DNA of 45,006 nt from a virus (UHGV-0250353); one strand, 5' to 3'; counted from the stretch's first letter, positions 787 to 9,331 are shown. Numbers and translations are program-made. The notes: generated by a model from the letters alone, not told the origin.

Positions 787-821
787 AGTAAGATACTCCT
801 ATTATTTTAGGAGATACTAAC

Positions 822-1472
822 ATGATACCCACAGAAAAAGTAGCTAAGAGTATGTGGCTGCGCGCGAATTATCCCGCGAACAAAAGCAGCAAAACTAGGC
901 GTGCAACTATATGCGATTTTGGCATAAATGATGCCGATTATGTGGTTAGTCCTAAGATAAACGGCAACCGTGAGCCGTGTCCTGCGTACGCTACGTGGCG
1001 AGGGATGATCCAACGTTGCATAGACGTCGAGTATAAAAACAAAAGACCTGCATACAAGGATGTAACTGTGTGGCATGGGTGGCAAAGGTTTATGTCCTTC
1101 CGTAGATGGTGGCTTTGTAATTACGTAGAAGGATGGGAACTAGATAAGGACTTATTCTCTGGTATTAATAAGATATACAGCCCCACCACTTGCATTTTTA
1201 TTCCGCAATGGTTGAATGTTTTTCTACTGGAAAGGAAAAATAGTGGGTCACCTACAGGTGTTTTTTATGAAGAATCAAGAGGTAAATTTAAAGCCTCAGT
1301 GAAATATGAGAAAAAAACTATTAATCTAGGACGTTTTGAAACTCAGGAAGAAGCGCTAGATGCCTACATCGCTGAAAAGATAAGGATAGCAGAATCAAGA
1401 AGATGCGAGATAGAGGCGATAAGAGAAGGTATGTTCGCCCGCGTTATCGCCTTGATAAAAGAGGGGCGTTAG
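822..1472 (+). CDS. AP2-domain putative homing endonuclease-like protein
   Basis: ORF track 216 aa; GGAG RBS before ATG 822; AP2-like segment GVFYEESRGKFKASV...LGRFETQEEALDAY; opposite strand to flanking tail genes. Confidence 0.5.
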   Translation: MIPTEKVAKSMWLRANYPANKSSKTRRATICDFGINDADYVVSPKINGNREPCPAYATWRGMIQRCIDVEYKNKRPAYKDVTVWHGWQRFMSFRRWWLCNYVEGWELDKDLFSGINKIYSPTTCIFIPQWLNVFLLERKNSGSPTGVFYEESRGKFKASVKYEKKTINLGRFETQEEALDAYIAEKIRIAESRRCEIEAIREGMFARVIALIKEGR

Positions 1473-1481
1473 CCCCTACCT

Positions 1482-3791
1482 TTAATACCCCGGCTGACCG
1501 CGAGTAGAGCGGCGAGCTTTAGAAATCGGTGAGTTGTTATCCTGTAACTGCGACGCTACTGTTTCACTGATTATAATACGTAAACGCCCTTCGTCATCAC
1601 GTTCTGTTACAGCAGAATCTACGCGCCCCGTAGTGTTATTAACTATAGTGACGTTATCACCGCCGGACTGGCCACCGTTTTGCCCCATAATCTCTTTCAT
1701 CTGCTGCGCAGTTCGTACGCGCGATGCGCCAGCAGGCATGATAACTTCCGGTTTGCCGCGTTCTGCGATGGTAGACATCTGCCCCGCTGATAACTGACCG
1801 CCCTGCTCACGTGCCGAGCGGATTTTGGCGATATTAGCCAGCCCCGCGGCAACGGCAGTACCTGCGGCAACCGGTGCCAGGAATGGGCCGACAACCGGTA
1901 TCGCTGCGGTAGACTTATATGCTTCGATAGCCGAGGTGTATGTTGCGATAGTGGCCTGGGCAATAGCAAACGCTTTATACGCGGTGGACGCCTCGCCAAA
2001 TGCCGTTTTAGCATTAGCTGCCATGTCACCGAAAGAACTACCTAAAGCCTCGGCGCGCTTCGTAGCATACTGCTCATTGATAGCGTTAAGCGCCGCCTGA
2101 TACTGTTCCTCGTTAATAAGCCCCTGTTCTCGATACTTATCAGCGACAGCCAGTTTCTGCTGTTCCTGGATGTCGAGGAGCTCAAGCTCAGCGGCGTTCT
2201 GCCCCATAATCTGGGCCATGAAGTCATCGCCTTTCTGCTGCTTTTCCTGCTGCTCTTTTCTTTTCTTATCCAGTTCTTCCTGTCTGGCCTGCTCGGCTGT
2301 GAGCATAATTTGAGTTTTGGCGTTTTCGTATTGCTGCTGGCTTATCGTTCCTGCGCGGTTGAACTCTTCAAGTTTTGCCAGTTTCTGCTCTTCGGCCGCC
2401 GTGATGCGAGAAATTTCATCTCCGGTTGTACGGTCAACCGTAGCAAGGAAATCTTCCGCGGCTTTCTTCTGGCGTTGTGCCGCCGTTTCTTCACGTTTGG
2501 CCTGCGCCGCCAGACGTTTCTCGTTCGATTTAGCCTCGCGGTCTGCCTTCTCTTTCTCGGTCTTGTCAATGCGGGCGATGTCTTGCTGTGCTTCCGTGTC
2601 ACGAGCAGCATTATACGCGGCGATCTGTTCTTTGGTTACAGCTTCACGTTTAGCAAACGCCTGCTTATCCAGTTCAGCTTGCGCCCGGATGCGCTCACGG
2701 TCGCTTAAGATGGCGATTTGCTGATTCTTGACGATAGCTTCGTTCTGCTCCTGGAACCTCTGCGTGGTTGAGTTAACGTTACGACCGAGATTCTTTTGGG
2801 CTTCCGCCGCTGCGTTTGCGGACTTCTCCGCGTTCTCCAGTGCTGTGGCGTTCTTGTTGGCGTTGTCTGTCAGGCGGATAAGTTCCGGATTCAACTGTTT
2901 TGTGTTACCGAGCCAGTCGGTAAACACATCGGCGATGCGGCGGGCATTCTCGGCGGTTGGCTCTTTGTTAAACGCGCTCTGCGCCGCTATCATCTCCAGC
3001 GCCTGGTCACGGTTAACCCCGAACTTACTGCTAAGCTCCGCTATATTCTGCGCCAGCATGTTGACGCCTACGATGTTACCCTCGTAAGTGCCGCCAAGTT
3101 TTTCTAACGTGTCGCCTACATCCGCACCCTTAGAGACCAATGCATCGTACTGGCTAATAGCGGATGCCGTGGAGGCTTTCCATGTCTCCCATGACTCGGC
3201 GTCCTCGCGGACAGCTTTAGCTGTTTGCTGCGCGATAAGGTCTGCGTTAGCCTTAGCCAGAGCAAGCTGAGTCTCCGCCGCTTCTCTGCTGATTTGGGTA
3301 AGCTGGATAAGGCCGTCTGTCAGTTCGAGGGAGCCAGATGCCGTTTGCTGGAAGGTGTCTTTTAACTGTTTCTGCGCGGCTTCCAGGTCTTTTGAACTGC
3401 CTTCTGCTTCGGTTAGCGATTTGTACAGGACACCGCCGATTGCCGAAGCAAGAGCAATCACAGCCCCGAGCACCGCGCCACCAGGTCCGAAAGCACCAGC
3501 AAGCTGCGAACCTTGTTGCCCGATTGCTACGAATGCAGACGTGCCGGATTGCAACTGGACTACCATGTCCTGCACCTGGAAGCCAACCTGCCCTGCAGCG
3601 TTACGGAACTTAGCGAAACCGTCGGAGGCCGCTTTAGACGTAGCGGAGTTTACTTTATTAACGTCCGGCGTTAGTTTGTTTACGGATGTGTCCGCCCGGT
3701 CTGCGGATGCCGCCATAGCGTCAAGCTGTTTAGCGGCCGCATCAGCGCCTTCTGTTTTTACTCTGGCAATTAGGGAAGCCGTATCAGCCAT
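1482..3791 (-). CDS. tail tape measure protein
   Basis: about 770 aa Ala/Gln/Glu-rich coiled-coil protein immediately downstream of chaperone pair; ATG 3791 with GAGG RBS preferred over TTG 3806 used by ORF track. Confidence 0.8.
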   Translation of the reverse strand: MADTASLIARVKTEGADAAAKQLDAMAASADRADTSVNKLTPDVNKVNSATSKAASDGFAKFRNAAGQVGFQVQDMVVQLQSGTSAFVAIGQQGSQLAGAFGPGGAVLGAVIALASAIGGVLYKSLTEAEGSSKDLEAAQKQLKDTFQQTASGSLELTDGLIQLTQISREAAETQLALAKANADLIAQQTAKAVREDAESWETWKASTASAISQYDALVSKGADVGDTLEKLGGTYEGNIVGVNMLAQNIAELSSKFGVNRDQALEMIAAQSAFNKEPTAENARRIADVFTDWLGNTKQLNPELIRLTDNANKNATALENAEKSANAAAEAQKNLGRNVNSTTQRFQEQNEAIVKNQQIAILSDRERIRAQAELDKQAFAKREAVTKEQIAAYNAARDTEAQQDIARIDKTEKEKADREAKSNEKRLAAQAKREETAAQRQKKAAEDFLATVDRTTGDEISRITAAEEQKLAKLEEFNRAGTISQQQYENAKTQIMLTAEQARQEELDKKRKEQQEKQQKGDDFMAQIMGQNAAELELLDIQEQQKLAVADKYREQGLINEEQYQAALNAINEQYATKRAEALGSSFGDMAANAKTAFGEASTAYKAFAIAQATIATYTSAIEAYKSTAAIPVVGPFLAPVAAGTAVAAGLANIAKIRSAREQGGQLSAGQMSTIAERGKPEVIMPAGASRVRTAQQMKEIMGQNGGQSGGDNVTIVNNTTGRVDSAVTERDDEGRLRIIISETVASQLQDNNSPISKARRSTRGQPGY

Positions 3792-4170
3792 CTTCTCTGC
3801 CCTCAAATATTCCGTCTAAGCCCATGATAACCTCGGCTTCGAACAAACTTATGCCGTAACCGGCGACATCACGAAACGCTACCAAATCTTGCCATTTGAG
3901 CGCATCGCGCGGGATTATAACGATAGTATCATCTGTTTCGCGCTGTAGGAATTTAATGGCACGGTATTTCTCGAACACGTCGATAAGAGAAACGGGGCAT
4001 TCTGGCCCCGTCGCTTCTTTCATCTGCGGTTCTTTAATCACACCCATTGCGATCAAAGCTGCTTGATGCCCCGCCGCGATGTCGTCGAATTGCTTACGTT
4101 TCTGGCGGTCGACAAAGCACCATTGCGCAAATTCATACAGCGCTTTTACTTTTCCGAGAGTTTCTCGCGG
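3784..4170 (-). CDS. tail assembly chaperone, -1 frame extension (GT-like fusion partner)
   Basis: reverse frame -1 relative to 4146..4562 is open from 4170 to stop 3784..3786; no ATG of its own (track start is TTG 4056); overlaps GGAAAAG at the last codons of upstream ORF. Confidence 0.4.
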   Translation of the reverse strand, partial: PRETLGKVKALYEFAQWCFVDRQKRKQFDDIAAGHQAALIAMGVIKEPQMKEATGPECPVSLIDVFEKYRAIKFLQRETDDTIVIIPRDALKWQDLVAFRDVAGYGISLFEAEVIMGLDGIFEGREDG

Positions 4171-4562
4171 CTATCGGTGTGGTGTTTAACTACGGCTTCT
4201 GCCAGTCCGCTGTACTGGTCTAACAGGTTAGCCAGCGCCTCTTTGCTGAACGGCTCGTCGAATGACCAACCGGTGACGATGTCGACAGCGAGCTGCTTGT
4301 TCAGGTCCATCACCCGCCAGCCCTTCTCATCGTTATAGCGCGCCCAGTTATTCAGCGCCTCGCACTCTTTATCTAATGGCGCAAGTTCTTCCGTAAGGCG
4401 TCGAATTGCCGTTGTGTAGGCGCGGCCTGCACGAACACCCGCATCACAATCGGGGCCAATGACCTGCAGCCATTCGCCGGAGTCTTTACCGCTCGGCAGG
4501 AGGATAGGCATTTTAGTACCAGTAGCGTGGCGGTCGGCAAAATAAAAATCAGAAAGTTTCAT
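4146..4562 (-). CDS. tail assembly chaperone (G-like)
   Basis: 138 aa ORF, ATG 4562 with AAGGA RBS; position between major tail protein region and tape measure; followed by -1 frame ORF. Confidence 0.55.
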   Translation of the reverse strand: MKLSDFYFADRHATGTKMPILLPSGKDSGEWLQVIGPDCDAGVRAGRAYTTAIRRLTEELAPLDKECEALNNWARYNDEKGWRVMDLNKQLAVDIVTGWSFDEPFSKEALANLLDQYSGLAEAVVKHHTDSREKLSEK

Positions 4563-4728: not shown

Positions 4729-4920
4729 ATGTCAAGTTTACCAGTTTCCTTAATTCTGTTTGCACTTCTCGCTTATTTCGCGCCTTTCCTGGTTGCGTAC
4801 TTCCGTAATCATAAAGCGAAGTTGGCAATATTCATGGCTAACCTGTTTCTTGGCTGGGTTCTGCTGCCGTGGGTATTTATTTTAATATGGGCTTGCAACT
4901 CGAACGTGAAAGAGAAGTAG
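4729..4920 (+). CDS. small two-TM membrane protein, superinfection-immunity (Imm)-like
   Basis: GGAGGG RBS then ATG 4729; two hydrophobic helices; FRNHKAKLAIFMANLFLGW...WVFILIWA resembles Imm-type small membrane proteins (from memory, not searched). Confidence 0.45.
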   Translation: MSSLPVSLILFALLAYFAPFLVAYFRNHKAKLAIFMANLFLGWVLLPWVFILIWACNSNVKEK

Positions 4921-4958
4921 GCTACTATAAGACAAATCCTAAACACGAGGAAGTAAGC

Positions 4959-6089
4959 ATGGCCCATAAGAAAATAACCGACGAACAGTTACAGGAAGAA
5001 TTGAACGCCGGAATGAAGAATGCAGACATCGCCCGTAAATACGGCATCTCAGACCGCGTAATTCGTATCCGTAAAGCGAAGCTGGCTAAGAAAGGCGTAG
5101 GCCACGGGCGTGACGTTAGTCACCTTGTCCCGGACGGCTACAAAATTAAAGGGACCTCGTCACTGGTGGACGAGTTCGGCAACACTAAACTTCAATGGGT
5201 TAAGACCGACACCGATGCCGAACGTCAGGTCGAGTTGATGAAAGCCGTAATCGAAGGCATGAAGTCGGAGATTACTCCAGTTGCACCAGTTAAAGCCGTT
5301 CGCGCCAAACGTGACGATAAACTACTCAATCTTTACACGGTATCTGATTTCCATCTCGGTATGCTGGCCTGGGCCGACGAGAGCGGCGACGACTGGGATA
5401 TGAAGATTGCGGAAGACCTGTTCTCTCGCTGGTTCGATGCTGCGTTCCAGAAAGCGCCAGATGCAGGAACAGGAGTTATTAACCTGCTTGGCGACCTTGC
5501 GCACTTCGATAGTCTGGATGCCGTTACACCTGCAAGCGGCCATGTTCTTGACGCGGACACGCGCTATCAGAAACTGGTCCGCTACATGATTCGTATGGTT
5601 CGCCGTGTTATTGATATGGCGCTGGTTAAGCATAAAAATGTTCGCTTGCTTATCGTGCAAGGGAACCACGACGAAAGTGGAATGATTTGGTTAGCTGAGA
5701 TGTTCAGTACGCTGTACGACAATGAGCCGCGTGTGTTTGTCGATACTTCACCAGATGTTTACAAGATGGTGCAACACGGCAAAACGACGCTGTTCTTTAC
5801 ACACGGGCATAAATGCCGGTTTGAGGTTGTCGAACCAATTATGATAGCTAAGTTCAGAAAAGCATTTGGAGAAAGCGAGTACAGTTACGCGCATGTAGGG
5901 CATCTCCACCATCAAAAGATTGTAGAAAGTAGGAATATGGTAGTGGAGCAACATCGCACTCTCGCGGCGAAAGATGCATATGCTTCCCGCGGCGGGTGGA
6001 TGTCTAAGAGGTCCGCTAATGTCATAACCTATAGTTCAGAGTTCGGGGAAGTAGGTAGGCTTTCAATCTCACCGGAGATGCTAAGATGA
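4959..6089 (+). CDS. HTH domain fused to calcineurin-like metallophosphoesterase
   Basis: GAGGAAG RBS then ATG 4959; motifs DFHLG, GDLAHFD, GNHDES, THGH, GHLHH in canonical order; N-terminal ADIARKYGISDRVIRIRKAK HTH-like. Confidence 0.7.
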   Translation: MAHKKITDEQLQEELNAGMKNADIARKYGISDRVIRIRKAKLAKKGVGHGRDVSHLVPDGYKIKGTSSLVDEFGNTKLQWVKTDTDAERQVELMKAVIEGMKSEITPVAPVKAVRAKRDDKLLNLYTVSDFHLGMLAWADESGDDWDMKIAEDLFSRWFDAAFQKAPDAGTGVINLLGDLAHFDSLDAVTPASGHVLDADTRYQKLVRYMIRMVRRVIDMALVKHKNVRLLIVQGNHDESGMIWLAEMFSTLYDNEPRVFVDTSPDVYKMVQHGKTTLFFTHGHKCRFEVVEPIMIAKFRKAFGESEYSYAHVGHLHHQKIVESRNMVVEQHRTLAAKDAYASRGGWMSKRSANVITYSSEFGEVGRLSISPEMLR

Positions 6090-6556
6090 AGTACCTTGAT
6101 GTTTCAAAACAATTTAAATACTGCCCTGATACGGGGCAGGTTACCAGGATATCTACTGGTGCTGAGGTTGGTACGGTTGGTGTAAGAGGATATCTGTGCT
6201 GCGGTATGGGTGGTAAAACAGTATATGTCCACCGCGTAGCATGGTGTCTTTATAATAAATGTGACTTAGACAGGAAAACACAAATAGACCACATAAACCA
6301 TAACAGGCTAGACAATAGAATAGAAAATCTACGCGCCACCGACAATACAGGGAACAGTAAAAATAAAACTATGAGAAAGATAAATAAATCCGGGGCTACA
6401 GGTGTAAGTTTCCACAAAGCCGCGGGTAAGTGGCGCGCGTTTATAAAAGTTAACTACAAACAAGTGCATTTAGGGCTTTACGACGATTTTGATGTAGCGG
6501 TTGCCGCGCGTAAAGCCGCTGAGAGTAAATACGGTTTTCATGAAAACCATGAGTAG
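6086..6556 (+). CDS. HNH homing endonuclease with AP2-like domain
   Basis: HRVAW...QIDHINHNRLDNRIENLR HNH motif; GVSFHKAAGKWRAFI AP2-like; ATGA overlap with upstream gene. Confidence 0.75.
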   Translation: MKYLDVSKQFKYCPDTGQVTRISTGAEVGTVGVRGYLCCGMGGKTVYVHRVAWCLYNKCDLDRKTQIDHINHNRLDNRIENLRATDNTGNSKNKTMRKINKSGATGVSFHKAAGKWRAFIKVNYKQVHLGLYDDFDVAVAARKAAESKYGFHENHE

Positions 6557-6567
6557 GAGAGCTATTT

Positions 6568-6798
6568 ATGACTTCAAAATATAACCGCACAATGACAAAT
6601 ACCCACGGCAGCACTATGACAGTAGACGTTTATGATGTGCTGCGGGCCTTCGACATCCGCGACCCAGCACTGCAACACGCTTTGAAGAAATTATTGTGCA
6701 TGGGCTTGCGTGGACACAAAGACACCGGGACGGACTTAGCGGAAGCAATTGAAAGTCTGGAGAAGTTACGAGAGTACCGGAGTAATATTGATGAGTGA
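6568..6798 (+). CDS. hypothetical protein
   Basis: ORF track 76 aa, RBS GGAG upstream, inside island operon. Confidence 0.5.
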   Translation: MTSKYNRTMTNTHGSTMTVDVYDVLRAFDIRDPALQHALKKLLCMGLRGHKDTGTDLAEAIESLEKLREYRSNIDE

Positions 6799-6970: not shown

Positions 6971-6996
6971 AAGGCCCCGAAAGGGGCCTTAGTTTT
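6971..6996. terminator. bidirectional intrinsic terminator AAGGCCCC-GAAA-GGGGCCTT + TTTT
   Basis: 8-bp GC stem, tetraloop, T-run on plus and A-run upstream; sits between convergent genes. Confidence 0.6.
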
Positions 6997-8167
6997 ATGC
7001 GTAGGTGATACGCTGGATAACAATAGACGACTGGTACTGATTGCCGGTAGCCTGGCCTTCGATGGACTGAGTGATTGACTCTGGTCCGCCAATCTCTGGC
7101 GTAACCGCCGTAAGTTCTGCGCGTTTCAGGCTGAAAGACATAGCCCCGTTTACCCCCGCCAGAATAGAGTTAATCTCTACCTGCTGTTCGTTGATAAACT
7201 TCTGAATCATCGCCATGTCGTACAGCTTACCGGAGATAGAGAAGGTGTTAGCCGCGCGACCACGTTCCACGAACGCAACGCTACTGTTGCCGAGTTCGAA
7301 CTGCGCAGAAGCACCGTTGTCGTTTGTGATGGTCAGAGTATCGCAACGCAACGGCGTAGAACCGTCGAACACGGACACATCTACGGATGAGAACGGCTCA
7401 TCGGTAAACGTCACCTGAGAGAAATCAGAACCTGCTGGCGGTGCAGAAAGAATCTCCTGACTTAGACCGATGAACGGGAAGCTGCCTGTCACCATCGCGT
7501 TTACGGCCTGTTCAATGGTGAATCCGGAGATTTCCACGCCTTTGGTCAACATGTACGCGTCCGGGTTCCCGCACTGTCCTTTGAACCATGTCAGGATGGA
7601 GAACGTCTTACATGCGTTACTGGTTTCCAGTTTGTCGCCGGTTTTAGCGTCGGTGGTTACAGTCTCTGCTGTCAGCGTGTGCTGAATGCCCGCACCCGTA
7701 ACTACAAGAGCAGAAACCGCGGTCACGATAAACGGTTTTGCGTTGTCGCCGGTTAAGTCGGTGAACGCAATCAGGTCGCCAACTTCTACACCGTCAGTAA
7801 TGAAGCTACCGGCAGCGCGGGTGAATGTTTTACCTGCTGGGGCGACCGTAATTTCAGCACCCGTAATCTCCACCCCATCCTGCCACGTAGAAGTCATCGC
7901 GCCCGCGAGGAAATCATCCTGGCTACGCGAGCTAAGTTCGATGGCGTACTCCCCGCTAACCTGCTTATTACCAGTGCGGATGGATGTAGTTTCACGGCTG
8001 CCGTCGAGTTCGTTGGAAGTCAGCGCATCGCGGGTTACGGCTGGAACGCCGCCCGTGTTACGCAACGGCGACCAGACCGGGTTAGTCGGTGTTACGCCCG
8101 GGGTATTTTCCACCACATAGAATTGCGCGGTATTCGCGCCCTTAAAAGGAGTTGTAGCCATATTCAC
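6995..8167 (-). CDS. major tail protein (putative)
   Basis: 390 aa Thr/Ser/Gly-rich structural-type protein; last large gene before chaperones/tape measure in transcription order. Confidence 0.5.
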   Translation of the reverse strand: MNMATTPFKGANTAQFYVVENTPGVTPTNPVWSPLRNTGGVPAVTRDALTSNELDGSRETTSIRTGNKQVSGEYAIELSSRSQDDFLAGAMTSTWQDGVEITGAEITVAPAGKTFTRAAGSFITDGVEVGDLIAFTDLTGDNAKPFIVTAVSALVVTGAGIQHTLTAETVTTDAKTGDKLETSNACKTFSILTWFKGQCGNPDAYMLTKGVEISGFTIEQAVNAMVTGSFPFIGLSQEILSAPPAGSDFSQVTFTDEPFSSVDVSVFDGSTPLRCDTLTITNDNGASAQFELGNSSVAFVERGRAANTFSISGKLYDMAMIQKFINEQQVEINSILAGVNGAMSFSLKRAELTAVTPEIGGPESITQSIEGQATGNQYQSSIVIQRITYA

Positions 8168-8580
8168 AGCCTCTTGGTGAATGCAATAAAGTTAATTGAC
8201 AATGGTCGTTTGGCCCATCCGTTTTCTACAATCAGCGGCCCCAGGCTAACCGATTGAACCTCGGCGCAGATGTCGTTACGTGAAAATGACTTACCTGCCT
8301 TAAACGCCGTGTTAAGTAAGTCTGCCATTTTATTGATTGGCGCGCTACCTTTCACCGATGCGTAGTTAATGTCCACCTGATAAATACCAGAGCGTTGTTC
8401 TGTGAAGAACAAATCCGCCTGTTCTGTATCCGCAAGTAACATGTAACTCGCCAGATACGGCGTATCGGTTGATGTCGGCGCGTCGATGTTTTCAAGTGCT
8501 ACCTTGATGCCGTTGGCGGTTCCGAAGGCTACCAGCGGCACATCAAACGCTTTTGTTAAGTCCTCAAAGTAGCCCATCAT
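8164..8580 (-). CDS. tail/neck structural protein (putative tail terminator or completion protein)
   Basis: 138 aa ORF translationally coupled in structural operon. Confidence 0.5.
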   Translation of the reverse strand: MMGYFEDLTKAFDVPLVAFGTANGIKVALENIDAPTSTDTPYLASYMLLADTEQADLFFTEQRSGIYQVDINYASVKGSAPINKMADLLNTAFKAGKSFSRNDICAEVQSVSLGPLIVENGWAKRPLSINFIAFTKRL

Positions 8581-8975
8581 TTCACCTTGTTGGCTTCTTC
8601 GTTAATGAGTTGCTGGAATCGGGACACATTTATCCTGACCATGCCTTGTGGGGCCTGTTTCGACCAATGGCCGTACTCCAACCGTTGCGCATACGGCAGA
8701 TTATTTGTCAGCGTGAACTCGTGCCAGTCTGTAGCTTTCAGAACGAAACTCGTAGCGTTTCCGGTTGCCGTGTTTCCTGATTTATCCGTAGCGTCTGTAA
8801 TTCCGGAAGCGGGGGTACCGCCAGACGCCATCCAGTTCATACGAAAGCGGCCTGTATCTACCGGACTCGCCTTTATGATAGCGGAAAACAACTTGACAGA
8901 CACCTGACGCATCACCTTCTCAGGATTCTTCTTCGCCTTTTCCACGAACTTAGAGACATCAAGCGCGAAACTCAT
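8577..8975 (-). CDS. neck/tail completion protein (putative)
   Basis: 132 aa ORF, overlaps neighbours by 4 nt. Confidence 0.5.
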   Translation of the reverse strand: MSFALDVSKFVEKAKKNPEKVMRQVSVKLFSAIIKASPVDTGRFRMNWMASGGTPASGITDATDKSGNTATGNATSFVLKATDWHEFTLTNNLPYAQRLEYGHWSKQAPQGMVRINVSRFQQLINEEANKVK

Positions 8976-9331
8976 TTTCTCACCTGAATAAAATACGCCA
9001 CGACATCATCGTTAACCATCTTCTTCTCGATACCTACGACAGACCATTGCTCGCCGCCGGATTGCACCTTGTCTTCCATTTTCGGGACGACACTGCAATC
9101 CGCTTTAACAATCATGTCGCCCGCCTGAATCGTCGTACCGTTCACCAGTCCTGCGTTAACAGGAACCGGAACAGCTTTCAACGGCAGCACTTCATCCGCG
9201 GACCGGACATACTCACCGAGAACTTCATCCCACACTTTCGAGCCAGCGCGAACAAGAGATACCGTGCTACCGAATTTGGTTAGCAGGCGTGTACCGACGC
9301 CTTGCATACGTTTACTGAAAGCGGTGCTCAT
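8972..9331 (-). CDS. head-tail adaptor-like protein (putative)
   Basis: ATG 9331 with AGAGGTG RBS preferred over upstream ATG 9412 of ORF track. Confidence 0.5.
   Translation of the reverse strand: MSTAFSKRMQGVGTRLLTKFGSTVSLVRAGSKVWDEVLGEYVRSADEVLPLKAVPVPVNAGLVNGTTIQAGDMIVKADCSVVPKMEDKVQSGGEQWSVVGIEKKMVNDDVVAYFIQVRK

What the first reader, a model, noticed from the sequence alone, without database searches (positions are those of the whole stretch)
4146..4170. Candidate programmed -1 frameshift joining the tail chaperone ORFs at a near-cognate GGAAAAG site adjacent to the stop
The ORF immediately upstream of the tape measure (3784..4170) is in the -1 frame relative to the G-like ORF, has no ATG, and is open only from 4170. 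The overlap contains GGAAAAG (minus-strand reading, plus 4149..4155) spanning the last two sense codons GAA-AAG before TAA. A -1 slip (AAG to AAA in the A site) gives a G-T-like fusion as in lambda, but the heptamer is not the canonical X-XXY-YYZ and sits directly against the stop codon.
Basis: partly seen in the sequence, partly recalled or inferred. Interest (0 to 1): 0.45.

Follow-up and report, generated by a model that had tools for sequence, protein, structure and literature searches.

The report
Tail-chaperone frameshift site with conserved RNA helix
This is the usual phage tail-chaperone -1 frameshift, already annotated at the identical site in close relatives, but its signal is unusual: a four-base A_AAG slip site directly against the stop codon, followed 5 bases later by a conserved long-range RNA helix that seems not to have been described.

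Summary
On the minus strand, the 138-aa chaperone ORF (4562..4146) ends GAA_AAG_TAA. The -1 frame is open from 4170 to 3784 and runs into the tape-measure gene.

The window is a Kagunavirus-like E. coli siphophage. GenBank records for K1H (2010), fFiEco02, fTaEco01 and Pantoea AH01 already join these two ORFs. So the frameshift itself is known, though only as an untested annotation.

Three things emerged from 18 lineages sharing less than 85% nucleotide identity:
- The invariant core is A_AAG plus an adjacent TAR stop, not a heptamer. The preceding codon varies (GAA, GGA, GUA, GCA, UCA).
- This spot has the strongest synonymous-site conservation in the whole gene pair.
- Five nucleotides after the slip site, a conserved arm (GCGCUGUAUGAAUUU, 4143..4129) pairs with a distal arm (3954..3940). 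Sister lineages use a different distal arm about 75 nt closer. The pairing is supported by compensatory changes, unprompted RNAalifold predictions and a protein-preserving codon-shuffle null.

Best reading: a G/GT-type -1 frameshift on a weak tetramer, boosted by the abutting stop and the long-range helix. No step has been tested experimentally.

The parts
4146..4562 (-). G-like tail assembly chaperone ORF, 138 aa, the zero-frame product
   Evidence: Pfam Phage_TAC_4 at E=1.1e-8; phrog_15027 positions 1-138.
4149..4152 (-). Conserved slip tetramer A_AAG.
   Evidence: Invariant in 18 lineages while the preceding codon varies among GAA, GGA, GUA, GCA and UCA.
4146..4148 (-). Zero-frame stop TAA directly next to the slip codon. 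In the -1 frame its TA forms part of the conserved Val codon GTA.
   Evidence: The stop is TAA or TAG and adjacent in every lineage.
3784..4152 (-). T segment read in the -1 frame, from the re-read AAA (4152..4150) to TGA 3786..3784. It adds 121 aa after K138, giving a 259-aa G-T fusion.
   Evidence: Pfam Phage_TAC_18 at E=9.6e-18. Substitution rates by codon position are 0.27/0.26/0.55 in the first 35 codons. The identical junction is deposited for K1H and fFiEco02.
4129..4143 (-). 5' arm of the long-range helix, GCGCUGUAUGAAUUU. It starts 5 nt (UAAAA) after the last base of A_AAG.
   Evidence: Codons GCG and CTG are each used in 13 of 13 lineages.
3940..3954 (-). 3' arm of the long-range helix, AAAUUCCUACAGCGC (T-frame codons K-F-L-Q-R). 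It forms 14 base pairs with the 5' arm plus one U.C mismatch.
   Evidence: Across group A, 91.7% of cells are paired against 23-48% when the partner is slid. Compensatory A-U to U-A, G-C to A-U and U-A to C-G or G-C changes are seen.
3955..4128 (-). Interior of the RNA domain closed by the helix. Conserved inner helices lie at 4123..4120 with 3964..3961 and 4113..4109 with 4088..4084, and there is a G+C-rich hairpin at 4012..3991.
   Evidence: The 223-nt fold has an MFE of -81.3 kcal/mol, z=-4.41, with 0 of 200 shuffles as stable. Inner pairs come from RNAalifold; the hairpin.
1482..3791 (-). Tape measure protein gene. Its ATG at 3791 overlaps the end of the T frame (ATGGCTGA).
   Evidence: annotation of relatives.

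Best explanation
Ribosomes translating the chaperone gene G reach ...GAA_AAG_UAA. Most terminate and release the 138-aa G protein.

A minority slip back one base: the single E. coli tRNA-Lys (anticodon UUU) re-pairs from AAG to AAA. The next codon read is then GUA (Val). Translation continues through 120 more codons and yields a 259-aa G-T fusion ending at the start of the tape-measure gene. This matches the lambda gpG/gpGT arrangement.

The slip motif is the tetramer A_AAG, not a heptamer, and such a tetramer is nearly inert on its own. Two conserved features are inferred to raise its efficiency:
- The stop codon lies immediately 3' of it. After translocation the A site is therefore slow to fill (a 'shifty stop').
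- An RNA domain is closed by a 14-15 bp helix whose 5' arm begins 5 nt after the slip site. That places it at the entrance of the mRNA channel when GAA and AAG occupy the P and A sites.

Because most ribosomes terminate just before the helix, the roughly 200-nt domain is rarely unwound and can stay folded. This last point is inference.

Shown here: the ORF geometry, the homology, the conservation, the covariation and the existing annotations. Inferred: that slippage occurs, its efficiency, and that the stop and the helix act as stimulators.
For: Geometry and homology:
-.
- The window is about 93% identical to Kagunavirus-like phages.

Existing annotation:
- The same two ORFs are annotated as a -1 join in K1H, fFiEco02, fTaEco01 and Pantoea AH01.
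- K1H has the identical site sequence.
- The deposited K1H and fFiEco02 fusion proteins match the K|V junction exactly.

Conservation of the site:
- NNA_AAG_TAR is invariant in 18 lineages.
- Synonymous-codon identity is 0.99 at the site against 0.46 overall, the top peak in G plus T.
- The T frame is coding from the slip site onward, and the internal ATG is not conserved.
- The putative CTG/TTG start has weak, variable complementarity to the ribosome's anti-Shine-Dalgarno (anti-SD) sequence: -0.4 to -4.3 kcal/mol, against about -5.4 for G and about -6 for the tape-measure gene.

The helix:
- A perfect complement to the 5' arm exists in every lineage.
- Group A: 91.7% of cells paired against 23-48% when slid; 7 cells with changes on both sides; covariation score 0.157 against 0.093, reached by 0 of 500 shuffles.
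- Group B: 86.3% against 15-51%; 9 such cells; 0.236 against 0.138, reached by 0 of 500.
- RNAalifold finds both closing helices without being told.
- The window's MFE fold contains the helix, z=-4.41.
- The observed arm duplex beats 377-400 of 400 protein-preserving codon randomisations in each of 18 lineages.

Literature:
- A_AA.G is the most shift-prone tetramer in E. coli: about 0.15% alone and up to 5.6% with a 3' pseudoknot (PMC4066793).
- NNA_AAG sites work in IS1222 and B. subtilis cdd. Typical spacers are 5-9 nt. E. coli has a single tRNA-Lys (PMC5009743).
- The window carries no tRNA genes.
Against: - There is no experimental evidence for either product in this phage group. The joins in GenBank are predictions.
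- A_AAG alone is barely above background (PMC4066793). P-site re-pairing from GAA to GGA would need a central G.U pair.
[quoted passage not shown] Many records annotate T as a separate gene.
- Six core helix pairs never vary, so they say nothing either way. The number of independent compensatory events is small, about 3-4 per group. The lineages are related, so the shuffle statistics overstate significance.
- The 3' arm is coding, and CAGCGC may be a common hexamer (not measured here).
- A helix closing a loop of 110-175 nt may fold slowly, and it could serve another purpose.
- No local hairpin or conserved upstream Shine-Dalgarno (SD)-like element was found.
Confidence: 0.8

Rival explanations
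1. T is a separate gene, started by termination-reinitiation or independent initiation at the conserved CTG (4140..4138; TTG in some relatives). The GGA or AGGA inside (A)GGAAAAG would serve as its ribosome-binding site. This is how several GenBank records annotate it.
For: Bas71, Eta, Schulenburg, SCS44 and VSt10 annotate a CDS starting at this codon. Schulenburg also annotates an RBS at AGGA. CTG or TTG is present at this position in all 18 lineages.
Against: - CTG is a very poor initiator in E. coli (general knowledge).
- Complementarity to the ribosome's anti-Shine-Dalgarno (anti-SD) sequence is weak and not conserved: -0.4 to -1.8 kcal/mol in L026, L047 and Eta.
- A_AAG_TAR is invariant although it has no role in such a model.
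- The candidate start codon lies inside the conserved helix.
- In lambda, the T domain works only when tethered to G (Xu et al. 2013/2014, as summarised in PMC5009743).
Confidence: 0.07
2. Only the C-terminal part of T is made, as an independent 87-90-aa protein starting at TTG 4056 or ATG 4047. The upstream 35 codons would be untranslated.
For: Gene callers often produce this 87-aa ORF: P0033 occurs on 241 contigs, and phage 26 has CDS 816..1082. The Pfam Phage_TAC_18 match covers residues 39-123 of the T translation, so it starts near this Met.
Against: The ATG is Ile in L017, L019, L029 and L030. The 35 codons before it show the substitution pattern of coding sequence (0.27/0.26/0.55), have no stops in 43 sequences, and carry conserved residues KV.ALY.FA.W..V....KQKFD.I..GH.A.
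Confidence: 0.05
3. The frameshift is real, but the long-range helix is not its stimulator. It might control mRNA stability or processing, mask spurious initiation inside T, or tune tape-measure translation. Alternatively it might partly reflect codon bias acting on two conserved peptide motifs.
For: - Lambda G-T frameshifting does not require a downstream structure (recalled from Levin et al. 1993; not checked here).
- The six core pairs are invariant and therefore uninformative.
- Both arms encode conserved residues, ALY(E/D)F and KFxQR.
- Long loops are unusual for bacterial frameshift stimulators.
Against: - The 5' arm starts 5 nt after the slip site in every lineage, inside the canonical 5-9 nt window (PMC5009743).
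- Two lineage groups use different 3' arms but the same 5' arm.
- Compensatory changes include GCGUUGCU/AGCAACGC and GCGUUGUUUC/GAAACAACGC.
- The helix exceeds protein-preserving codon randomisations in all 18 lineages.
- A tetramer needs a stimulator to be useful (PMC4066793).
Confidence: 0.3
4. The fusion arises from transcriptional slippage: RNA polymerase adds or drops an A in the A-run.
For: A short A-run (AAAA) is present at the site.
Against: The run is only 4 A in the window and 3 A in lineages with GUAAAG, GCAAAG or UCAAAG. That is well below the roughly 7 or more needed for productive slippage (general knowledge).
Confidence: 0.02

Closest known systems
Lambda gpG/gpGT tail assembly chaperone -1 frameshift (Levin et al. 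1993; Xu, Hendrix and Duda 2004)
   Same: Two overlapping ORFs lie just upstream of the tape-measure gene. The second is in the -1 frame, and the fusion shares the N-terminal G domain. The slip ends in A_AAG, read by tRNA-Lys. Both halves are homologous to tail-assembly-chaperone families.
   Different: Lambda uses the canonical heptamer G_GGA_AAG, located several codons before the G stop, and as recalled needs no 3' structure. Here only A_AAG is conserved, the stop abuts the slip codon, and a conserved long-range helix follows. Only one variant among the 43 distinct IMG/VR sequences compared (L042) has G_GGA_AAG.
Annotated G-T joins in Kagunavirus K1H (GU196278/NC_027994, ORF19A/19B), fFiEco02, fTaEco01 and Pantoea phage AH01
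   Same: Same genes. The site sequence is identical in K1H. The deposited K1H and fFiEco02 fusion proteins have the same K|V junction.
   Different: Those are feature-table predictions with no analysis of the signal. The window's own fusion sequence is not in the 15-billion-protein collection.
NNA_AAG / Z_ZZN single-tRNA -1 sites: IS1222 (G_CGA_AAG), B. subtilis cdd (A_CGA_AAG), and the synthetic A_AA.G tetramer in E. coli
   Same: Only the Lys codon can re-pair cognately. The 5' codon is any NNA. Efficiency is low without a stimulator (PMC5009743; PMC4066793).
   Different: The 5' codon here is GAA, GUA, GCA, GGA or UCA rather than CGA. The stop codon is immediately 3'. The context is a phage chaperone gene.
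Burkholderia phage KL1 gp18/gp19 predicted frameshift
   Same: The slip site lies immediately upstream of the zero-frame stop (GGGAAAC then TGA). KL1's capsid and tail proteins are related to those of K1H (PMC3483164).
   Different: KL1 has a canonical heptamer. A tail gene intervenes before its tape-measure gene. Only a local stem-loop was proposed.
Long-range frameshift stimulators: barley yellow dwarf virus, and IS3411-type IS elements (distal element 44-104 nt 3')
   Same: [quoted passage not shown]
   Different: Those are loop-loop or bulge-loop interactions added to a local stem. Here the slip-proximal sequence is itself one strand of a simple closing helix.

Membership tests
Lambda-type G/GT tail assembly chaperone frameshift | Two ORFs between the major tail protein gene and the tape-measure gene, directly upstream of the latter | tested here: met
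   G is 4562..4146, T is 4152..3784, and the tape-measure gene starts at 3791. The tail tube gene is 8167..6995. Caveat: an opposite-strand gene block (4869..6798) sits between the tube gene and G.
Lambda-type G/GT tail assembly chaperone frameshift | Second ORF overlaps the first in the -1 frame and has no conserved start codon or RBS of its own | tested here: met
   The -1 frame is open from 4170. The first in-frame TTG/ATG are 32-35 codons in, and that ATG is not conserved. The CTG/TTG near the junction has weak, variable SD complementarity.
Lambda-type G/GT tail assembly chaperone frameshift | Canonical X_XXY_YYZ slippery heptamer within the overlap | tested here: not met
   The window has G_GAA_AAG. 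The first three positions vary across lineages; only L042 has G_GGA_AAG. The tetramer A_AAG is present and invariant.
Lambda-type G/GT tail assembly chaperone frameshift | Sequence homology of both halves to tail assembly chaperone families | tested here: met
   PF08748 Phage_TAC_4 (35.8 bits, cutoff 21.1) and PF23812 Phage_TAC_18 (64.5 bits, cutoff 27). phrog_15027 covers positions 1-138 and 137-259.
Lambda-type G/GT tail assembly chaperone frameshift | Both G and G-T proteins made in a fixed ratio, and both needed for tail assembly | not testable with these tools
   Needs protein detection and genetics.
Z_ZZN / NNA_AAG single-tRNA -1 frameshift sites | A_AAG in the correct phase (AAG as a zero-frame codon preceded by A) | tested here: met
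   Conserved in 18 of 18 lineages, with AAG in 13 of 13 against 40% of Lys codons elsewhere.
Z_ZZN / NNA_AAG single-tRNA -1 frameshift sites | Host decodes AAA and AAG with one tRNA-Lys (anticodon UUU) | tested here: inconclusive
   The host is inferred to be E. coli from relatives. E. coli has a single tRNA-Lys according to PMC5009743. The window carries no tRNA genes. The host of this particular phage is not given.
Z_ZZN / NNA_AAG single-tRNA -1 frameshift sites | Accompanied by a stimulator, since the tetramer alone is near background | tested here: met
   Computational only. A conserved helix starts 5 nt 3' of the site. Its function is untested.
Shifty-stop frameshift sites | Zero-frame stop codon immediately 3' of the shift codon | tested here: met
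   AAG_TAA in the window. An adjacent TAA or TAG is present in all 18 lineages.
Shifty-stop frameshift sites | Frameshift level depends on termination efficiency or release-factor level | not testable with these tools
   Needs reporter assays with the stop replaced by a sense codon, or release-factor titration.
IS3411-type or luteovirus-type long-range frameshift stimulators | Distal element pairs with a loop or bulge of a local stem-loop next to the shift site | tested here: not met
   No conserved local hairpin exists. The slip-proximal sequence pairs directly with the distal arm as a closing helix.
Rfam curated frameshift elements | Match to a curated covariance model | tested here: not met
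   No Rfam match at E<=1 in 3700..4400.

The most novel reading that the evidence does not exclude
Guernseyvirinae phages drive their chaperone frameshift with a previously undescribed composite signal. It consists of a bare A_AAG tetramer, an obligatorily adjacent stop codon, and a 120-200-nt RNA domain closed by a helix whose 5' strand begins 5 nt after the slip site.

The 5' strand has stayed fixed through evolution. Its 3' partner has been re-sited between two positions about 75 nt apart in different lineages.

Termination of most ribosomes just before the helix would keep the domain folded. That would make the stop codon part of the stimulator's design.
Probability: 0.5. Interest if true: 0.55.

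Novelty: new variant of a known kind. Interest (0 to 1): 0.4.

Why it matters
The frameshift itself is routine biology and is already annotated in relatives.

The practical value concerns annotation. Of 514 matching GenBank phage records, most of the 60 listed and the majority of those inspected annotate the T ORF as a separate 'hypothetical protein', with ad hoc CTG, TTG or internal ATG starts. One paper states that no slippery sequence exists. The invariant A_AAG-stop signature gives a clear rule for annotating the fusion across Kagunavirus, Jerseyvirus and their allies.

The scientific value is modest but real. If the helix is confirmed, this would be a natural bacterial-virus case in which a minimal tetramer site is made productive by an abutting stop plus a long-range closing helix. 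It would also show that the distal arm of such a stimulator can relocate during evolution. The system is compact, genetically tractable in E. coli, and suited to studying single-tRNA slippage and how termination competes with frameshifting.

Tried and rejected
- Local downstream hairpin or pseudoknot. The 109 nt after the site fold no better than shuffles (z=+0.52). RNAalifold on the first 70-110 nt finds nothing conserved. Rejected in favour of the long-range helix, which appeared only when I searched for complements of the conserved block.
- Upstream SD-like stimulator. GGGAG or AAGGAG occur in single lineages only and are not conserved (sequences).
- Heptamer significance. The count of GGAAAAG in the window is not above chance.
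- The search for homologous proteins with the fusion returned only G-length relatives at 51-65% identity. It was uninformative about the junction. The exact-sequence look-up settled the junction instead.
- Rfam found no family. ARAGORN found no phage tRNA that could alter Lys decoding.
- The Jerseyvirinae paper (PMID 25663216), cited in the Schulenburg record as predicting the frameshift, is not held in the library. I therefore could not check whether it discusses the signal. The searchable library contains no description of a stimulator for this group.
- A structure prediction of G and T was considered unnecessary, because family membership was clear from Pfam and PHROGs.

Full report
**What is at the site.** All coordinates are on the minus strand.
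- An ORF starts at ATG 4562 and ends ...CGC GAG AAA CTC TCG GAA AAG TAA, with AAG at 4151..4149 and TAA at 4148..4146. It encodes 138 aa.
- The -1 frame has a TAG at 4173..4171. It is then open from 4170 to TGA 3786..3784.
- The tape-measure ATG at 3791 overlaps the end of that ORF (ATGGCTGA).
- GGAAAAG occupies 4155..4149 and abuts the stop.

One correction: the -1 ORF does contain in-frame TTG (4056) and ATG (4047), but only 32-35 codons in. The heptamer itself is not rare, with 9 copies in the window against 5.95 expected. Any significance has to come from context.

**Identity of the genes.** The window is about 93% identical over 6.5 kb to Escherichia phages AV104 and 590B. It also matches hundreds of Kagunavirus and Jerseyvirus (Guernseyvirinae) genomes.
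- The 138-aa protein matches Pfam Phage_TAC_4. The -1 translation matches Phage_TAC_18.
- One 259-position PHROG, phrog_15027 'tail assembly chaperone', matches G at positions 1-138 and T at 137-259. The fused protein is therefore itself an established family.

**Prior annotation.**
- GenBank and RefSeq records for K1H (ORF19A/19B, deposited 2010), fFiEco02 ('frameshift product'), fTaEco01 and Pantoea phage AH01 annotate a two-piece join across these ORFs.
- K1H has the identical site sequence.
- I built the K1H and fFiEco02 fusions assuming tRNA-Lys re-reads AAG as AAA, giving the junction ...SEK|VKALYE.... Both exact 259-aa sequences are in the public collection as ADA82316.1/YP_009168853.1 and QNO11587.1/YP_010749005.1.

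Annotation is inconsistent elsewhere, however.
- Bas71, Eta, Schulenburg, SCS44 and VSt10 call T a separate gene starting at CTG or TTG.
- Other records use internal starts.
- I found no experimental test.

**Comparative test of the site.** I collected 47 usable IMG/VR loci, giving 43 distinct sequences in 13 clusters below 85% nucleotide identity. I added five more lineages from GenBank.
- In every lineage the G ORF ends NNA_AAG followed at once by TAA or TAG.
- In every lineage the -1 frame then runs 119-123 codons to the tape-measure gene.
- The codon before AAG varies: GAA, GGA, GUA, GCA or UCA. P-site re-pairing is therefore not conserved. The motif is the tetramer A_AAG, that is an NNA_AAG site.
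- Codon choice is fixed. AAG is used in 13 of 13 lineages, although AAG is only 92 of 229 Lys codons elsewhere. The preceding codon ends in A in 13 of 13, against 30% elsewhere.
- More distant homologues (30-36% identity) carry classical T_TTT_TTC or A_AAT_TTT heptamers 25-58 nt before their stop. The A_AAG-stop arrangement is therefore derived within this clade.

**T is translated from the slip site.**
- Among the 13 lineages, substitution rates by codon position in the 35 codons between the slip site and the internal ATG are 0.27/0.26/0.55. G shows 0.33/0.31/0.60 and the rest of T 0.35/0.26/0.60, so the patterns match.
- Residues such as KV.ALY.FA.W and KQKFD.I..GH are conserved in that stretch.
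- The internal Met is Ile in four lineages.
- The candidate CTG/TTG start has weak, variable anti-SD complementarity. It ranges from -0.4 to -4.3 kcal/mol, against about -5.4 for G and about -6 for the tape-measure gene.
- The window has no tRNA genes.
- The A-run is only 3-4 nt long, which argues against transcriptional slippage.

**A conserved RNA element.** Synonymous-codon identity between lineages averages 0.46 across G plus T. It reaches 0.99 in the windows covering [NNA]_AAG_TAR_NN_GCG_CTG_TA, the single highest peak. GCG and CTG are each used in 13 of 13 lineages, whereas other conserved Ala and Leu columns use four or five codons.

No local hairpin explains this. Searching for complements of the block showed that every lineage has one downstream.
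- **Group A (3' arm at about +201):** the window, Jersey/SETP3-like phages, phiEap-2-like phages, Eta, Pantoea AH01 and others. The complement is UACAGCGC.
- **Group B (3' arm at about +129):** fTaEco01/phage 26-like, Schulenburg-like, VSt10-like phages and others. The complement is (A)CAGCGC.

In the window, GCGCUGUAuGAAUUU (4143..4129) pairs with AAAUUCcUACAGCGC (3954..3940). That gives 14 pairs around one U.C mismatch. The helix starts 5 nt (UAAAA) after the slip site.

**Evidence that the pairing is selected.**
- *Compensatory changes.*
  - L014 has GCGCUGUUGAAAU/AUUUCAACAGCGC.
  - Pantoea AH01 has UAC/GUA where others have UAU/AUA.
  - L013 keeps a G.U pair.
  - Schulenburg has GCGUUGCU/AGCAACGC.
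  - VSt10 has GCGUUGUUUC/GAAACAACGC.
- *Pair counts, group A.* 91.7% of cells are paired against 23-48% with the partner slid. Three pairs (7 cells) changed on both sides. The covariation score is 0.157 against 0.093, reached by 0 of 500 shuffles.
- *Pair counts, group B.* 86.3% against 15-51%. Four pairs (9 cells) changed on both sides. The score is 0.236 against 0.138, reached by 0 of 500 shuffles.
- *Unprompted prediction.* RNAalifold predicts both closing helices without guidance, plus inner helices that also covary.
- *Thermodynamics.* The window's 223 nt from the slip site fold to -81.3 kcal/mol (z=-4.41, 0 of 200 shuffles as stable). The long-range helix closes that structure.
- *Rank within the gene.* The arm's best duplex ranks in the top 0.4-5% of all 16-nt windows in G plus T, in every one of the 13 lineages.
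- *Protein-preserving null.* I resampled synonymous codons while keeping the protein sequence. The observed duplex beats 377-400 of 400 randomisations in each of 18 lineages.

Caveats apply. Six core pairs never vary. The independent compensatory events are few. The lineages are related, so these statistics are not true probabilities.

**Mechanism.** Shown: the geometry, homology, conservation and covariation. Established in the literature:
- Z_ZZN tetramers can direct -1 frameshifting.
- A_AA.G is by far the best tetramer in E. coli. It gives only about 0.15% alone and up to 5.6% with a 3' pseudoknot (PMC4066793).
- NNA_AAG sites are used by IS1222 and occur in B. subtilis cdd, and the 5' codon modulates their efficiency.
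- E. coli has one tRNA-Lys for both AAA and AAG.
- 3' stimulators usually start 5-9 nt after the shift site (PMC5009743).

Inferred:
- With GAA and AAG in the P and A sites, the helix sits at the entrance of the mRNA channel and impedes translocation. This favours AAG-to-AAA re-pairing.
- Once AAG reaches the P site, the stop in the A site gives a second, termination-limited window for slippage.
- Because most ribosomes terminate 1-5 nt before the helix, the large domain is seldom unwound.
- The next codon read is GUA (Val). That codon is also why the zero-frame stop is conserved as UAR.

**Comparison with known systems.** Functionally this is a lambda G/GT-type chaperone frameshift. It fails one defining feature of the classical signal, the X_XXY_YYZ heptamer. 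It fits the NNA_AAG tetramer class instead.
- Adjacency of slip site and stop has a predicted precedent in Burkholderia phage KL1 (GGGAAAC then TGA; PMC3483164).
- Long-range stimulators are known in luteoviruses and IS3411-type elements, but those are loop interactions on a local stem (PMC5009743). Here the helix is a plain closing helix.
- No Rfam family matches.
- The searchable literature holds no description of a stimulator for this phage group. The Jerseyvirinae paper cited in one record was not available.

**Verdict.** The frameshift as such is already annotated in close relatives and is ordinary biology. What appears new is the architecture of the signal: a tetramer, an abutting stop, and a conserved long-range helix with two alternative 3' arms. 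This also explains why annotators disagree about the T ORF.
- Confidence that a G-T fusion is made by -1 frameshifting at 4152..4149: about 0.8.
- Confidence that the helix is a stimulator: about 0.5-0.6.
- Interest: moderate (0.4).

Noticed in passing
window 8972..8975 (minus strand), ORFs about 9331..8972 and 8975..8577: The upstream head-tail connector ORF ends AGA_AAA_TGA, and the next ORF starts at the overlapping ATG (AAAATGAG). K1H and fFiEco02 annotate this pair as a second -1 frameshift join (ORF12/13); Bas71 annotates two separate genes. It is again an A-rich tetramer directly against a stop, but here a good ATG makes ordinary translational coupling plausible.
   Followed up: partly
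window 3991..4012 (minus strand): There is a terminator-like hairpin inside the T ORF: GACGGGGCC-AGAAUG-CCCCGUU followed by a U-rich tail. The same hairpin, over codons G-P-E-C-P, is conserved with compensatory changes in group B relatives (A2 columns 150-169). I do not know whether it attenuates transcription before the tape-measure gene or is just part of the RNA domain.
   Followed up: partly
window 4869..6798 (plus strand): An opposite-strand block sits between the tail tube gene (8167..6995, minus) and the chaperone gene. It includes a metallophosphoesterase/'DNA repair exonuclease' and small ORFs. Its content differs between relatives, which carry an HNH homing endonuclease, polynucleotide kinase or an ATP-binding protein.
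   Followed up: no
GenBank records L001, L056, L059, L060, L063-L066: The T ORF is annotated in at least four incompatible ways across the group: as a join, with a CTG/TTG start (in Schulenburg with an annotated RBS), from an internal ATG (87-88 aa), or from other starts. An 87-aa version occurs on 241 contigs in the protein collection.
   Followed up: yes
L055 (Salmonella phage SS3e NC_006940.2) and L058 (Klebsiella phage vB_kpnM_D1 PP107912.1): Both have frame-breaking differences. In SS3e the G reading frame is interrupted early; in D1 the T frame ends after 77 codons. These are probably sequencing or assembly errors; D1 is flagged UNVERIFIED.
   Followed up: no
window 4120..4123 with 3961..3964, and 4109..4113 with 4084..4088 (minus strand): RNAalifold predicts inner helices of the RNA domain in group A. 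Some have changes on both sides: A1 columns 35/197 show 6 such sequences and 45/74 show 2.
   Followed up: no
L050, L052, L053, L054 (IMG/VR contigs, 30-36% identity in G): Distant homologues of the chaperone use canonical heptamers (T_TTT_TTC, A_AAT_TTT) 25-58 nt upstream of the stop. The A_AAG-stop arrangement is therefore a derived state of the Guernseyvirinae-like clade.
   Followed up: partly
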